Shown: positions 51,380-60,247 of the stretch, one piece after another
Layout: every line of letters starts with the position of its first letter
Numbering within the stretch: position 1 is the first letter of the stretch
From: a virus
Reading direction: 5' to 3' (one strand)
IMG/VR virus record: IMGVR_UViG_3300029258_001393
Location: 1 to 63,515 of that record
Length of the DNA: 63,515 nt
The notes under the pieces: model-generated
Told to the model about the DNA's origin: nothing
What the model saw: the letters and a program-made list of their open reading frames with translations, nothing else
Databases searched by the model: none
Position numbers and translations under genes: made by a program

Positions 51380-54300
51380 ATGGGAATTGAAGCTGGAAAA
51401 ATAGATTTTGACGCTTGGGACAAAGAGATAGCTGAACAAAAGCCACAGAAATCAACTGGGATGGACTTCGATTCGTGGGATAAAGAGATATCGGCGGGCG
51501 AAGAGGTAGAACAACGAGGCTTGCCCGGTGACATTGTTTCCGGGATCGTTCGCGGTGTTGCCGTTGAAATGCCGAGTTTGTTTCTGGATACGGTGGGGGC
51601 CACCGAAAGAATAGCCAGAAAAGCCCTTGGTTATGAAAAGGAACAAGAGGTTGGGCCTATTGGAGAAATGGCCAGGGCTGGGAAAGAAGGCCTTGAACAA
51701 TTCAGGTCCGAACATTCTATTTTAAGAGCCAAAGAAAAACCCGGTATTATCTCCCAGGGCGTTGAGGCGGCGGCCATGTCCATAAGTTCCGGCGCTCCGG
51801 GTGCCGTAGCCGGTTTTGGAATCGGTTCATTGTTTGGCCCGGCGTCCCCGGTTACCGCACCCATGGGCGCATTGATCGGTTTTGCCATGTCCGGGGGTCT
51901 TACGTTTGGTCTTGCCGAGTACGAAAATGTCATACAGCTTGCCGATGAGCAGGGCATTGACCGGGCGGAAAGCGAACCGGCGGCTATTTGGTCGGGATTG
52001 GCTGAAGGTGGTTTTGAATTCGCTTCCGACCTGATAACCGGTGGATTGCTAAAGGTTGCCAAACCATTGACCGCCCCGGCAAAAGAAGGATTAAAGTCGG
52101 GAATTCGCCAAGTGTTTAAAATGGGAGTCAAGGAAGCCCTTGCAAGATCTGGTGCGGTTCTTGCCTCTGAAACTTCAATGGAAATGCTGACCGCCGGTGT
52201 CCAGGCAGAGCAATATAAAAAGATCGGTCTCGGAGACGCTACCTTTTGGGAGGGAGCGAAACAGGCCATGGGTCCGGCGTTTGTCGCGTCTGTAATCTTT
52301 GCCGGGATCGGAACCGGTGCCACACGTTTACACCAGGTTTCAATCAGAAGAAAGATCGAGAATGGTGCTATAGATCCAAAGAAACGTATGCAGGCGGCTA
52401 ATGAAGTTGGTGAAATCCTCGGCCAGGTTGACAAGGACCTTGCTAAAGTGTGGCGGATTAACGCTACTGAGGCCATAAAGAATAAAGAAAATATCGATAT
52501 TGACGATCCTGACCTGATACGGGCAACCGCTGTTAATCGTGCCGACCAGGAACCCGGCGGAGCAACACCGGAAAACATTGAGGTTAAAGAACAGGAAATC
52601 AAGCAGGAGATTCACACCGAGAAACAGGACGATATCAGAAACCATATATCCCTTGCCGTTGCCATAGGGGAAATAAACGATGTTCAGGCGCATGAGTTAG
52701 GCAGAAGCGTAGGTCTTGGCCTTGACGAAGTGAACCAGGCGCTTATTCGCGGTACTGGCGTACAGCAAATGTTCAACGATGCGGACCCCATTGAACTCAG
52801 ACCCTTTGCCGTTCATAACGATATTGCCATTCCCGATTCCATAACCGACGGCAATCAAATGGCGGCTATCATTCAGGAAGGCTTGAAAGAGGAAGGGTCG
52901 GTTGTCTCTGAACTGGCCAAACAGGTAAAAAACCTTGAACAGACCGCAAAAACACGGGGCATGGAACATGCGGCGGAAACTCTTGCGAAGAAGAAAGCGG
53001 CATTGGATAAGATGTTGCCGGAACCGGATGAGGTTTACGGGGAAGCTCCGCCGATAGAGAAGGGATTTGAAAAGGAGGCCGAAGGTGATCGTGAAGAAGG
53101 GAAACAATTGGTGGGTGAAGTCGGAAAAGGGGAAGAACCTGGGGGGGCCATACCAAAGCCGGAAACAGGCGGTGAAGAGGTTGAAACAGGTGGAGTACTT
53201 CAAACACCGGAAGAAATAACTCCTGAGACGCCCGTAGTCGAGCTGGAGACTGAACCCGTACCAGAAGTCGCAAAACCTGAGAAAGTCGAAGGAACGGCGG
53301 CTGATGAATCGGTGGAGGCTGAAAAGCCAATTTCTGTAAGATTAAACAATGGCGAGGTCGTCACTCGGTCTGCCCGTACAAAGGGTAAGTTTCAAACAAC
53401 AAGATTTACAGAAGAGGGGGAACCTGCTGGACACGAAGAGCATAACACCCTTTCTGAAGCAATTAAAGATAATTACAAAGAGCTTGACAATCCTGTTTCA
53501 AGGCTTGCAAAAAATACTCCAAACGCAGTTGAGTCATGGGAAGAAGCGACATTTGAACATCCACATAAAGACGAATTGCAAAAGGCTCCATATGCCTATG
53601 TTTCACCGTTAAGACCGCTTACAGGCGTTGGTGTCAAAGGAAAAGTATCTGCTGATAAGTCTGGAAGGGTTGGTGTTTTATACAGAGACACGCCACTTCC
53701 TGTTGAAAAAATGGAATCGTTATCATTAATTCCTGTTACACCAAAAGCTGTGGAATCGTTTGCCGTAGATATGGCTAACAAATATGAAGGGATAAAACCC
53801 AAAGCCACCAAGCCCGAACTTTCAGCAGAAGACAAAGCCATGCGAGACATGCTCAAGCCGGGAACGGGTGAATTTCTTAGGAAGAACGGGTTGATTGGGC
53901 CTGAGAAGACCGTACACGATTACAGCAATACGCAAGTTAATCTTCCTGAAGAATCTGCAAAACCCATTAAGGATCTTGCTCAAAAAATACCCGAAGAAGA
54001 ACTTTATACCGAACCAGATAATAATGATTACGGTCGTGAGGATGCACCACACATTACCGTTCGTTATGGACTCGAAACAACAAATCCTAAAGATATTGAA
54101 CCCGCATTTAAAGACTTGGGGCCGGTAAAAGTAAAGTTCGGCAAGGTCTCTATTTTTGAAACCGACAATTACGACGTCGTTAAGGTCGATATTGAAAGCC
54201 CTGATTTAGAGAAGGCCAATAAGAAAGTTGGCGAAACGGTAGATCTTCCGGGCGAAACCTTTAAAGATTACAAACCCCATGCCACTATTGCCTATGTAAA

Positions 54301-60247: not shown

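What the first reader, a model, noticed from the sequence alone, without database searches (positions are those of the whole stretch)
51380..60247. 2955-aa single-ORF polyvalent virion protein
One uninterrupted ORF covers 14% of the genome. Its parts, in order, are:
- Gly-rich transmembrane helices (aa about 120-330).
- An acidic Pro/Glu linker.
- A 2H phosphoesterase domain.
- Repeated ...EGK(A/P)VP(E/K)E(L/V)L... modules.
- An H-E-G-E-G-H segment.
- A diphtheria-toxin/PARP-like segment.
- A C-terminal module of about 1000 aa with hydrophobic helices.
It follows the 1451-aa and 379-aa proteins, like the internal ejection proteins of podoviruses. It would therefore deliver several enzymes into the cell with the DNA.
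Basis: partly seen in the sequence, partly recalled or inferred. Interest (0 to 1): 0.7.

Follow-up and report, generated by a model that had tools for sequence, protein, structure and literature searches.

The report
Giant effector-carrying phage ejection protein
This 2955-residue gene of an uncultured temperate short-tailed phage is a "polyvalent protein", a known but little-studied kind: several host-manipulating enzymes strung between conserved end modules, most likely packed in the virion and injected with the DNA.

Summary
The ORF is real (51380-60247, +, 2955 aa, 14% of a circular ~63.45 kb phage genome). All seven listed parts are present.

- Pfam finds ART-PolyVal (aa 1784-1928, 56 bits) and a 2H phosphoesterase (aa 883-977) with both HxT motifs.
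- HEGEGH (aa 1622-1627) is a conserved HExxxH motif with a downstream conserved Glu. It fits the variant zincin peptidase described for polyvalent proteins.
- The ends are conserved modules. The N-module (aa ~60-400) holds a 50-residue uncharged Gly/Ala stretch. The C-module (~900 aa, all-alpha) has no Pfam or PDB match, occurs in 878 protein clusters and is always C-terminal.
- Cargo upstream of the C-module varies: ART, RadC, zeta toxin, lysozyme, GNAT, PBECR5.
- A phage 66-83% identical in DNA carries SNF2-helicase cargo and lacks the 2H and ART cassettes.
- The gene closes the virion operon, downstream of an SU10-type adaptor.
- Its last 100 residues weakly resemble the C-terminus of phi24B gp47, a polyvalent protein detected in virions by mass spectrometry.

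Verdict: a new member of the known polyvalent-protein class (Iyer et al. 2017). Packaging and injection remain inferred.

The parts
51380..60247 (+). Whole ORF, 2955 aa: a polyvalent protein and the last gene of the virion operon
   Evidence: An identical protein occurs on an independent contig (P0001).
51404..51490 (+). Two tandem DFD(A/S)WDKEI motifs (aa 9-17 and 29-37) at the extreme N-terminus. Function unknown; a candidate docking or incorporation signal (inference).
   Evidence: The N-terminal 60 aa are conserved in P0002-P0005 (consensus).
51557..52579 (+). Conserved N-module (aa ~60-400). It holds a 50-residue uncharged Gly/Ala-rich stretch (aa 130-179; nt 51767-51916) and a second hydrophobic segment (aa 296-315; nt 52265-52324). 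Inferred to insert into the membrane.
   Evidence: A profile HMM finds it in 10 other giant proteins (E 1e-111 to 1e-172) with different cargo, including a Desulfatibacillum prophage protein (P0010).
52577..53329 (+). Conserved helical segment (aa 400-560) followed by an acidic Glu/Pro-rich linker (aa ~560-650)
53327..53914 (+). Orphan segment U1 (aa 650-845). No homologue or family was found.
53915..54424 (+). 2H phosphoesterase domain (aa 846-1015) with catalytic motifs PH891-I-T and PH967-A-T
   Evidence: Pfam PF13563 scores 29.9 bits against a cutoff of 27. The closest PDB sequence is Acb1, but only at E 0.17. Both motifs are invariant in 6 homologues.
54437..55117 (+). Three repeats (aa 1020-1246) of a small helical unit, W-x-x-T...H-x-x-x-V-x-x-A-x-x-EGK-x-VP-x-EVL. 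Function unknown.
   Evidence: The same motif occurs in P0016, P0020, P0024, P0027, P0048 and P0119.
55118..55969 (+). Orphan Lys-rich segment U2 (aa 1247-1530). It is specific to this phage; the close relative carries 7.5 kb of SNF2-helicase cargo at this position.
56000..56569 (+). Zincin-like metallopeptidase domain (aa 1541-1730). It has H1622-E-G-E-G-H1627 (HExxxH; nt 56243-56260) and a conserved Glu in AAD-E1674-W (nt 56390-56404).
   Evidence: Alignment A4 shows HEGEGH, HEAEGH, HEILGH and HES-AH in homologues. The AF2 model has pLDDT 70-88 and the order helix, strand, helix, strand, strand, helix, helix, helix. Top Foldseek hits are zincins, but at E >= 0.12. Iyer et al. describe an HEXXXH peptidase clade.
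55973..55984 (+). Junction motif PLYS (aa 1532-1535), just upstream of the peptidase domain. Further copies are VLYS (aa 1740-1743; nt 56597-56608) and LLFS (aa 1945-1948; nt 57212-57223), at the peptidase/ART and ART/C-module boundaries. Candidate processing sites (hypothesis).
   Evidence: The same motif flanks the peptidase domain in P0002, P0003 and P0014.
56702..57184 (+). ART-PolyVal ADP-ribosyltransferase (aa ~1775-1935). Conserved residues are H1788 (VYHGT), Y1815 (YYFS), D1900 (GYDG) and D1923 (VVLD).
   Evidence: Pfam PF18760 scores 56.4 bits against a cutoff of 31.2. The residues are seen in an alignment of 21 hits in 19 proteins. The cassette is absent from the close relative L001.
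57227..59929 (+). Conserved C-module (aa ~1950-2850). It is all-alpha, holds the signature QPMFSPEHRSSLSRG (aa 2658-2672) and a hydrophobic helix (aa 2710-2734), and has no known fold or family beyond PHROG 28077.
59945..60244 (+). Basic helical C-terminal tail (aa 2856-2955), ending ...AQRFNKRYVELK. It is shared with LPD38-type polyvalent proteins.
   Evidence: Against P0004 and P0005, E 2e-8. A tail HMM matches the last 97 aa of phi24B gp47 end to end (E 5e-5, 14.6 bits, in a 170-sequence database).
60350..60396 (+). Terminator-like hairpin (17 bp) plus T-run that closes the operon
45869..51378 (+). The upstream 1451-aa gene (Pro-rich repeats plus long coiled-coil repeats) and 379-aa gene. 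They are translationally adjacent and are candidate partner ejection proteins.
   Evidence: The gene order is conserved in L002 and partly in L001.

Best explanation
The gene encodes a phage polyvalent protein that also serves as the large ejection (pilot) protein of a temperate, short-tailed phage.

**Proposed mechanism.**
1. It is made late, as the last gene of the virion operon, and packed inside the capsid. This step is inferred.
2. At infection it is threaded through the tail as beads on a string. The acidic/Pro-rich linkers and the many small domains suit this. This step is inferred by analogy with N4 gp50.
3. The Gly/Ala-rich N-module, and possibly the buried hydrophobic helix of the C-module, insert into the cell envelope. 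This step is inferred.
4. The central cargo then acts in the cell before any phage gene is expressed.
   - The 2H phosphoesterase would destroy cyclic or 2'-5' oligonucleotide defence signals, or trim 2',3'-cyclic RNA ends. The domain is shown; the substrate is inferred.
   - The H-Y-D ADP-ribosyltransferase would modify host proteins. The domain is shown; the target is unknown.
   - The HExxxH zincin-like domain would cut the polypeptide into its working parts, possibly at the PL(Y/F)S motifs that flank it and the ART. The motif is shown; the activity and the sites are hypotheses.

**Modular design.** The N- and C-modules are a conserved chassis. The cargo between them is exchanged as cassettes between related phages. 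This is shown by comparison with L001.
For: **Domains.**
- ART-PolyVal and the 2H domain score above Pfam cutoffs.
- Catalytic residues are conserved.
- The HExxxH motif plus downstream Glu is conserved to 27% identity. The model is zincin-like, and its weak top structural hits are all zincins, including the HExxxH enzyme MATCAP.

**Phage context.**
- The window encodes a large terminase, portal, major capsid protein, head-closure protein and an SU10-type adaptor, and an integrase.
- The giant gene starts 1 nt after the upstream stop and is followed by a terminator.
- The same gene order occurs in L002, and in part in L001. In a Desulfatibacillum prophage (L004) the giant gene is again last after an SU10-type adaptor.

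**Chassis and cargo.**
- The C-module occurs in 878 clusters. It is C-terminal in 150 of 150 complete cases, with a median of 623 variable residues upstream.
- Cargo in 22 carriers includes ART-PolyVal, RadC, InPase, zeta toxin, lysozyme, GNAT, PBECR5 and RelA/SpoT.
- Window against L001 shows 66-83% DNA identity, with three cassette differences inside the gene.

**Packaging.**
- The C-terminal tail resembles that of LPD38-type proteins, including phi24B gp47.
- gp47 is abundant in virions by mass spectrometry and has been proposed as an ejection protein (bioRxiv 10.64898/2026.04.10.717836).
- SU10 gp20-24 and N4 gp50 are precedents for ejected proteins, and N4 gp50 for a giant one.
- Iyer et al. 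predicted exactly this role for the class.
Against: - There is no direct evidence of packaging, ejection, processing or any enzyme activity.
- Neither conserved module resembles the known ejection proteins T7 gp14-16 or N4 gp50-52, by sequence or by fold.
- Hydrophobicity of the N-module is below the usual transmembrane threshold.
- The zincin assignment lacks a significant family or fold match: there is no Pfam hit and Foldseek E is 0.12 or worse.
- Similarity to Acb1 is below threshold (16.6 bits against 27).
- The tail match to gp47 is weak (14.6 bits).
- Short-tailed morphology is inferred from one adaptor family and from the absence of confident long-tail gene hits among the genes scanned. 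The 1451-aa gene gives one weak tape-measure PHROG hit (E 0.0012).
Confidence: 0.7

Rival explanations
1. It is a late-expressed multi-enzyme protein that is not packaged. It would act inside the producing cell or the lysogen, for example in superinfection exclusion, as a toxin, or in host takeover late in infection.
For: The phage is temperate (integrase). Iyer et al. note that hosts can capture polyvalent proteins and use them against other elements. Nothing here shows packaging.
Against: The gene is translationally coupled to virion genes and closes the virion operon. The conserved termini and hydrophobic module are unnecessary for a purely cytoplasmic enzyme. A related-type protein, phi24B gp47, is abundant in virions. 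Enzymes that counter defence signalling are most useful before phage gene expression starts (inference).
Confidence: 0.12
2. It is chiefly a structural channel or tape-measure-like ejectosome protein. Its embedded enzyme-like domains would be decayed relics with no effector role.
For: More than half of the protein consists of non-enzymatic modules: the N-module, the C-module, repeats and linkers. Ejection proteins evolve quickly and are mosaic (PMC8954989).
Against: The catalytic residues of all three enzyme-like domains are intact and conserved among homologues. Cargo is exchanged as whole enzymatic cassettes, which indicates selection on the cargo.
Confidence: 0.1
3. It is a virion RNA polymerase of the N4 or crAss type, with the polymerase hidden in the unannotated 900-aa C-module.
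For: Its size and position resemble N4 gp50. Some ART-PolyVal domains are fused to N4-like RNA polymerases.
Against: No RNA polymerase family matched in Pfam, NCBIfam or PHROGs. A confident all-alpha model (pLDDT 80) has no PDB match, and the sequence profile has none either. The module also occurs almost alone, in proteins of about 950 aa.
Confidence: 0.03
4. It is an artefact: an assembly chimera, or several genes fused by sequencing errors.
For: The ORF is unusually long.
Against: The same protein occurs on an independent contig. There are 15 homologues of 2000-4600 aa with the same layout. A stop-free run of this length has a chance of about 1e-80.
Confidence: 0.01

Closest known systems
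Phage polyvalent proteins (Iyer, Burroughs, Anand, de Souza, Aravind 2017, J Bacteriol; PMC5512222)
   Same: Both are very large single polypeptides that combine unrelated enzymes. ART-PolyVal, 2H and a zincin peptidase (including the HEXXXH variant) are all listed there. Both are encoded next to late/virion genes of a terminase-portal phage and predicted to be injected with the DNA.
   Different: That paper names MuF, portal or N4-polymerase fusions as the virion link and does not mention membrane or ejection modules. Here the chassis is an N-terminal hydrophobic module plus a 900-aa all-alpha C-module. Neither matches any Pfam family, including Pfam's LPD families.
Stx phage phi24B gp47 (2807-2811 aa; LPD5, LPD1, MuF_C and LPD38 domains)
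   Same: Both are giant polyvalent proteins and the last gene of the late region of a temperate short-tailed phage. gp47 is found in virions by mass spectrometry and proposed to be an ejection protein. The two share a ~95-aa C-terminal tail ending ...RFN(K/R)xY.
   Different: No other segment is detectably similar. gp47 has LPD38 where this protein has the C-module, and profile comparison finds no similarity between the two. The cargo is different.
Coliphage N4 gp50 virion RNA polymerase (~3500 aa)
   Same: Both are giant proteins of loosely connected domains. gp50 is packed in the capsid and expelled through the tail with two smaller ejection proteins, and its terminal domains serve packaging and ejection.
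   Different: There is no RNA polymerase here. The cargo is anti-defence or host-modifying enzymes, and no sequence similarity was found.
T7 gp16 (with gp14 and gp15) and SU10 gp20-24 ejection proteins
   Same: All are the last and largest of a run of internal-protein genes after the tail genes. All are largely alpha-helical with hydrophobic segments thought to refold into the membrane. T7 gp16 and SU10 gp20 carry an enzymatic (transglycosylase) cargo domain, and some C-module carriers carry a lysozyme.
   Different: No sequence or fold similarity was found. This protein is more than twice as long and carries cytoplasm-directed enzymes rather than a cell-wall hydrolase.
Acb1 (phage anti-CBASS 2H phosphodiesterase) and T4 Alt (injected ADP-ribosyltransferase)
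   Same: These are functional precedents. Acb1 is a 2H enzyme that destroys defence signalling nucleotides and is the best PDB sequence match of the 2H domain. Alt is an ART injected from the capsid.
   Different: The Acb1 match is sub-threshold (E 0.0066, 16.6 bits against 27; PDB E 0.17). Alt belongs to the R-S-E clade, not the H-Y-D clade, and is a separate small protein.

Membership tests
Polyvalent proteins (Iyer et al. 2017) | Two or more domains with disparate biochemical activities in one polypeptide | tested here: met
   The protein holds a 2H phosphoesterase, an ART-PolyVal and an HExxxH zincin-like domain.
Polyvalent proteins (Iyer et al. 2017) | Encoded by a phage or conjugative element, next to late/virion genes in phages | tested here: met
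   The window encodes a large terminase, portal, major capsid protein, head-closure protein and SU10-type adaptor upstream on the same strand. The order is conserved in L002 and partly in L001.
Polyvalent proteins (Iyer et al. 2017) | Zincin-like metallopeptidase hub domain (common in the class, not obligatory) | tested here: inconclusive
   HExxxH and a downstream Glu are conserved, and the model topology fits. However, no Pfam peptidase family matched and Foldseek hits to zincins have E 0.12 or worse.
Polyvalent proteins (Iyer et al. 2017) | Transferred into the host cell with the DNA | not testable with these tools
   Testing this needs virion proteomics and ejection assays.
ART-PolyVal / Tox-ART-HYD2 clade | Profile match above threshold and an H-Y-D active-site configuration | tested here: met
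   PF18760 scores 56.4 bits against 31.2. H1788, Y1815 and the conserved Asp residues D1900 and D1923 appear in an alignment of 21 hits in 19 proteins. Which Asp is catalytic is inferred.
2H phosphoesterase superfamily | Two H-x-T/S motifs and a profile match above threshold | tested here: met
   PF13563 scores 29.9 bits against 27. H891-I-T and H967-A-T are invariant in 6 homologues.
Acb1 anti-CBASS family | Pfam PF23474 at or above its gathering score | tested here: not met
   The score is 16.6 bits against 27, and the PDB Acb1 match has E 0.17. It may work like Acb1, but it cannot be filed as Acb1.
T7 gp16-type / podovirus ejection proteins | Sequence or fold similarity to gp14, gp15, gp16 or their homologues | tested here: not met
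   No match was found by PDB sequence search, profile search or Foldseek.
T7 gp16-type / podovirus ejection proteins | Syntenic position after the tail genes, alpha-helical, with hydrophobic segments | tested here: met
T7 gp16-type / podovirus ejection proteins | Present in the virion and lost on genome release | not testable with these tools
   Testing this needs mass spectrometry of full and emptied particles.
LPD38-type polyvalent ejection proteins (phi24B gp47) | An LPD38 domain | tested here: not met
   The query has no PF18857 hit. hhalign of the C-module against LPD38 gives probability 0.1. Only the ~95-aa C-terminal tail is shared.
N4-like virion RNA polymerase | An RNA polymerase domain | tested here: not met
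   No family or fold match was found.
Tape measure protein | Long-tailed phage context (tail tube and chaperone genes) and tape-measure families | tested here: not met
   The context is an SU10-type adaptor with no confident tube or sheath hit among the genes scanned. The giant protein has no tape-measure family hit.

The most novel reading that the evidence does not exclude
The N-module (Gly/Ala stretch) and the ~900-aa all-alpha C-module together define an undescribed, widespread 'carrier' family of phage ejection proteins. This family would be a functional analogue of T7 gp16 with a fold of its own.
- It would ferry freely exchangeable effector cassettes into the cell.
- The embedded HExxxH peptidase would release cassettes at the PL(Y/F)S junction motifs.
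- The ~95-aa basic C-terminal tail would be a portable packaging or ejection signal shared with LPD38-type proteins such as phi24B gp47.
Probability: 0.4. Interest if true: 0.6.

Novelty: new member of a known kind. Interest (0 to 1): 0.4.

Why it matters
Polyvalent proteins were predicted in 2017 to be a phage's first strike: enzymes that arrive with the DNA, before any phage gene is expressed. They remain almost untested experimentally.

This example is useful for three reasons.
- **Clean cargo.** It has three recognisable enzyme domains with intact catalytic residues.
- **A natural cargo swap.** A closely related phage carries a different cargo in the same chassis, which makes domain-by-domain tests against defence systems straightforward.
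- **Two recurrent, uncharacterised modules.** The C-module alone occurs in 878 protein clusters, is always C-terminal, and has no Pfam family or solved fold. Together with the N-module it probably holds the answer to how a protein of roughly 330 kDa is packed and threaded through a short tail.

If the junction motifs are processing sites and the C-terminal tail is a packaging signal, both could be used to load foreign proteins into capsids. None of this changes the basic classification: it is an ordinary member of a known class.

Tried and rejected
**Searches that found little or nothing.**
- Near-identity DNA search of GenBank phages found nothing.
- tblastn of the whole protein found only 2H-domain hits. 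tblastn of the C-module found two weak hits.
- Whole-protein phmmer against the PDB found nothing. The segment searches gave only sub-threshold hits.
- Two of the three large homology searches were largely wasted. The N-terminal 550 aa returned one fragment, probably because Gly/Ala-rich words swamped the candidate list. The peptidase+ART segment returned only P0168.
- NCBIfam and PADLOC added nothing.
- The first related-loci scan failed because alignment A2 was too divergent. The repeat with A6 gave only three MAG contigs: Deltaproteobacteria at 72% identity, Spirochaetales at 52% and Firmicutes at 34%. This is a weak host hint at best.

**Structure results.**
- Foldseek of the C-module against the PDB gave no meaningful match.
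- The ART half of the second AF2 model was unusable (pLDDT below 50), so the ART fold was not checked structurally.
- Foldseek of the peptidase model gave only non-significant zincin hits.

**Hypotheses tested and dropped.**
- The C-module is a divergent LPD38: hhalign probability 0.1.
- phi24B gp47 shares the N- or C-module: no similarity.
- PL(Y/F)S is a general junction motif of the family. Its apparent enrichment comes almost entirely from the conserved QPMFSPEH core motif. True junction copies occur only around the peptidase and ART.

**Other rejected readings.** Virion RNA polymerase, tape measure protein and assembly artefact (see rival explanations).

**Neighbouring genes.** PDB sequence searches of the 839-, 619- and 1451-aa neighbours were uninformative.
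Full report
**1. The observation**

The window is a complete phage genome. Its ends overlap by 62 bp, giving about 63.45 kb of unique sequence. It encodes the following:
- a gpA-type large terminase (25968-27575);
- a portal (32762-34711);
- a major capsid protein (36878-37846);
- an SU10-type adaptor (38290-38952; Pfam E 6.6e-16);
- a head-closure-like protein (39139-40104);
- an integrase (10176-11348, minus strand).

It is therefore a temperate phage whose head-to-tail connector is of a short-tailed type.

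The ORF at 51380-60247 (+) is uninterrupted for 2955 codons, with a chance probability of about 1e-80. It starts 1 nt after the stop of the 379-aa gene and is followed by a hairpin plus T-run at 60350-60396. An essentially identical protein exists on an independent metagenomic contig (P0001). The ORF is real and closes the virion operon.

**2. Anatomy, N- to C-terminus**

| Part | Residues | Finding |
|---|---|---|
| (a) N-terminal motifs | 9-37 | Two DFDxWDKEI motifs, conserved in relatives |
| (b) N-module | ~60-400 | 50-residue uncharged Gly/Ala stretch (aa 130-179, five GxxxG) and a second hydrophobic segment (aa 296-315) |
| (c) Helical segment and linker | 400-650 | Conserved helical segment, then a Glu/Pro-rich linker |
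| (d) Orphan U1 | 650-845 | No homologue found |
| (e) 2H phosphoesterase | 846-1015 | Pfam 29.9 bits against 27; H891-x-T and H967-x-T invariant in six homologues |
| (f) Repeats | 1020-1246 | Three units ending in EGKxVPxEVL |
| (g) Orphan U2 | 1247-1530 | Lys-rich |
| (h) Zincin-like domain | 1541-1730 | Holds HEGEGH (details below) |
| (i) ART-PolyVal | ~1775-1935 | Pfam 56.4 bits against 31.2; H1788, Y1815, D1900 and D1923 conserved |
| (j) C-module | ~1950-2850 | All-alpha, no known fold (section 3) |
| (k) C-terminal tail | 2856-2955 | Basic and helical |

Further detail on three parts:
- **N-module (b).** A profile HMM finds it in 10 other giant proteins with quite different cargo (E 1e-111 to 1e-172). 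Its hydrophobicity (Kyte-Doolittle 1.35-1.54) is sub-canonical for a transmembrane helix.
- **2H domain (e).** The nearest solved relative by sequence is the anti-CBASS enzyme Acb1. That match is only E 0.17, and Pfam Acb1 is below threshold.
- **Zincin-like domain (h).**
  - His, Glu and His of the motif are invariant down to 27% identity. One homologue has the classical HExxH (HES-AH), and a Glu in AADEW follows about 47 residues later.
  - Iyer et al. describe exactly such an HEXXXH clade of zincin peptidases in polyvalent proteins.
  - The AF2 model of this part (pLDDT 70-88) has the order helix, strand, helix, strand, strand, active-site helix, helix, Glu helix.
  - Its best PDB matches are all zincins: anthrax lethal factor, MATCAP (itself an HExxxH enzyme), jannalysin and IrrE. 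All have E 0.12 or worse. I therefore rate the assignment probable, not proven.

**3. The C-module**

An exhaustive HMMER search found 878 clusters (50% identity level) at E 1e-3 or better, and 289 at E 1e-30 or better.
- In all 150 retrieved proteins that reach the end of the module, at most 122 residues follow it, and 30 or fewer follow in 119 of them.
- The upstream part is variable, with a median of 623 residues and a maximum of 3400.
- The AF2 model is confident (pLDDT 80, pTM 0.73) and entirely alpha-helical.
- It matches nothing in the PDB by fold (best E 0.85) or by profile. It matches no Pfam family, only PHROG 28077, 'unknown function'.
- In BFVD it matches 92 predicted structures of uncultured-phage proteins (best E 1e-23, TM 0.5-0.63). 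Those that carry names are mostly named for an N-terminal cargo domain: nuclease, MuF C-terminal domain, PolyVal ART, LPD, GNAT, zeta-toxin-like kinase.
- A Pfam census of 22 carriers found ART-PolyVal (4), RadC (3), InPase, zeta toxin, DUF7178, phage lysozyme and GNAT (2 each), and LPD23, LPD3, PBECR5, DnaJ, 2H and RelA/SpoT (1 each).

The module is thus a conserved C-terminal chassis for the polyvalent-protein domain repertoire. Its most conserved signature is QPMFSPEHRSSLSRG (aa 2658-2672). It contains one strongly hydrophobic helix (aa 2710-2734), which is modelled as a confident long helix.

**4. Cargo is exchanged as cassettes**

The closest relative, P0002 (4410 aa, on a 63,445-bp contig, L001), shares the N-terminal ~120 aa, the segment aa 415-653, the repeats, the peptidase domain (71% aa identity) and the C-module plus tail (81%). 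At DNA level the two virion modules are 66-83% identical. Inside the gene there are three differences:
- the U1+2H block (window ~53087-54425) is absent from L001;
- window U2 (~1.5 kb) stands where L001 has 7.5 kb encoding an SNF2-type helicase;
- the ART cassette (window ~56581-57232) is absent from L001.

Other relatives keep the N-module but carry RadC, GNAT, methylase/helicase or LPD38.

Short PL(Y/F)S motifs sit exactly at the boundaries before the peptidase, between peptidase and ART, and between ART and C-module (aa 1532, 1740, 1945). The same motif flanks the peptidase domain in P0002, P0003 and P0014. The ART cassette therefore lies between two copies of the motif where P0002 has one. 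A fragment, P0168, has nearly identical linkers (MTSKKGPGDITT...SPMGG and LPKPSSP) around an ART only 25% identical.

I read these motifs as candidate processing sites or recombination joints. This is a hypothesis, and the motif is not general to the family.

**5. Evidence bearing on packaging and ejection**

*Synteny.*
- In L002 the giant gene is preceded by genes of about 158, 620, 1200-1450 and 365-380 aa, as in the window. L001 shares the 158- and ~620-660-aa genes but has 687-, 311-, 83- and 323-aa genes in place of the last two.
- In L003 it follows 298- and 355-aa genes.
- In a Desulfatibacillum prophage (L004) it is the last prophage gene after an SU10-type adaptor and fibre-like genes, abutting a host type I-E CRISPR locus.
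- The 1451-aa neighbour consists of Pro-rich repeats and long coiled-coil repeats. The 379-aa protein has no family hit.
- Among the virion genes scanned, no confident tail-tube, sheath or tape-measure family was found. The only such hit is a weak tape-measure PHROG match of the 1451-aa protein (E 0.0012).

*Precedents.*
- In SU10, five proteins (gp20-24) are present in virions and lost on genome release (PMC9509320).
- N4 ejects its 3500-aa gp50 through a channel of about 35 angstroms as 'beads on a string' (PMC13434306).
- T7 gp16 carries an enzymatic N-terminal domain and hydrophobic regions that refold into the inner membrane (PMC8954989).

*phi24B gp47.*
- This 2807-aa polyvalent protein (LPD5, LPD1, MuF_C, LPD38) is the last gene of a temperate short-tailed Stx phage.
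- It was found abundantly in virions by mass spectrometry and proposed to be an ejection protein (bioRxiv 10.64898/2026.04.10.717836).
- It shares no module with the present protein except the extreme C-terminus.
- The 100-aa tail here matches the tails of the LPD38-bearing relatives P0004 and P0005 (E 2e-8).
- An HMM of these tails aligns end to end with the last 97 residues of gp47 (E 5e-5 in a 170-sequence database, 14.6 bits).
- The match is weak but positionally exact. It suggests that the tail is a portable element tied to virion incorporation or ejection (inference).

**6. Most likely mechanism**

*Shown.*
- The protein is multi-enzyme, with intact catalytic motifs.
- It has conserved end modules and swappable cargo.
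- It sits at the end of the virion operon of a temperate phage with a short-tail-type adaptor.

*Inferred.*
- It is packed in the capsid and expelled ahead of or with the DNA.
- The Gly/Ala-rich N-module, and perhaps the hydrophobic helix of the C-module, engage the envelope.
- The linkers let the chain pass the tail channel unfolded or domain by domain.
- The peptidase cuts the chain.
- The 2H domain removes nucleotide second messengers or RNA 2',3'-cyclic ends. Iyer et al. proposed both options.
- The ART modifies host proteins, as T4 Alt does.

I put 0.7 on this overall picture. The rivals are a non-packaged late enzyme (0.12), a mainly structural protein with relic domains (0.10), a hidden RNA polymerase (0.03) and an artefact (0.01).

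**7. Comparison with what is known, and novelty**

The protein meets the defining features of the polyvalent proteins of Iyer et al. 2017 that can be tested in silico (see the membership table). It is not a member of the Acb1, LPD38, T7 gp16, N4 polymerase or tape-measure families by the tests run. It may nevertheless work like Acb1 (2H domain) and like gp16 or gp50 (delivery).

It has no close relative among 50,697 GenBank phage records. Its nearest genomic relatives are MAG contigs labelled Deltaproteobacteria and Spirochaetales.

What goes beyond the 2017 description:
- the two-module chassis, which that paper does not mention in membrane or ejection terms;
- the direct view of cassette exchange between two related phages;
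- the junction motifs;
- the shared C-terminal tail.

These are leads rather than findings.

**8. Scores**

- Interest: 0.4. The result is solid and useful, but it is expected for anyone who knows the polyvalent-protein literature.
- Most novel reading not excluded: the N- and C-modules define an undescribed, widespread carrier family of ejection proteins with peptidase-released cassettes and a portable C-terminal packaging signal. Probability about 0.4; interest 0.6 if true.

Noticed in passing
window 31174-31755 (+): This 193-aa ORF between the terminase and the portal matches Pfam Acb2_Tad1_hairpin (E 3.6e-6; 27.5 bits against a cutoff of 27; aa 144-176). It may be a cyclic-nucleotide sponge. 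If so, the phage would carry both a sponge and a 2H (Acb1-like) enzyme against nucleotide-signalling defences.
   Followed up: no
window 1-62 and 63454-63515: The two ends of the window are an exact 62-bp direct repeat. The contig is therefore a circular assembly of a complete genome of about 63.45 kb.
   Followed up: yes
window 45869-50224 (+): The 1451-aa neighbour has N-terminal Pro-rich tandem repeats (PSPPE..P.FEGVEPD), then about 800 aa of ~100-residue coiled-coil repeats (EFYKAEI...), then a Ser-rich tail. It matches PHROG 10969 in 7 stretches and, weakly, a tape-measure PHROG. It may be the periplasm-spanning partner of the giant protein.
   Followed up: partly
window 41002-43521 (+) and 60411-60848 (+): The 839-aa protein contains many tandem LPDL(K/Q)-type repeats and looks like a fibre. 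The 145-aa ORF just after the giant gene holds three tandem copies of a ~37-aa unit (EYQI.SIRL.SDKN..V.Y.ED).
   Followed up: no
window 10176-11348 (-): A tyrosine integrase (PHROG 1, E 1.3e-19) indicates a temperate lifestyle. A DNA methyltransferase (11717-12574) and a PAPS-reductase-like gene (8052-8810) lie nearby.
   Followed up: no
L004 (Desulfatibacillum aliphaticivorans KE386982.1), locus 10001-30089: The prophage carrying the N-module relative P0010 (3362 aa, helicase/methylase cargo) ends directly beside a WYL regulator and a complete type I-E CRISPR-Cas locus of the host.
   Followed up: no
P0168 (431-aa fragment on a 2.5-kb JGI contig) against window aa 1760-1945: Nearly identical linker peptides (MTSKKGPGDITT...SPMGG upstream and LPKPSSP downstream) flank ART domains that are only about 25% identical. 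The linkers are more conserved than the domain they enclose.
   Followed up: partly
P0002 and P0003 aa ~123-480 against window aa 123-414: The closest relatives keep the first ~120 residues but replace the Gly/Ala-stretch part of the N-module with a different, also Gly-rich and hydrophobic, segment. Even the presumed membrane module is exchangeable.
   Followed up: partly
window aa 1771-1945 (ART domain) against P0001: The only residue that differs between the window protein and its otherwise identical metagenomic twin lies inside the ART domain.
   Followed up: no
window aa 2658-2672 (nt 59351-59395): QPMFSPEHRSSLSRG is the most conserved stretch of the C-module across dozens of retrieved family members. 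Its conserved polar residues (Q, E, H, R, S) might mark a binding or catalytic site in a module otherwise assumed to be structural.
   Followed up: no
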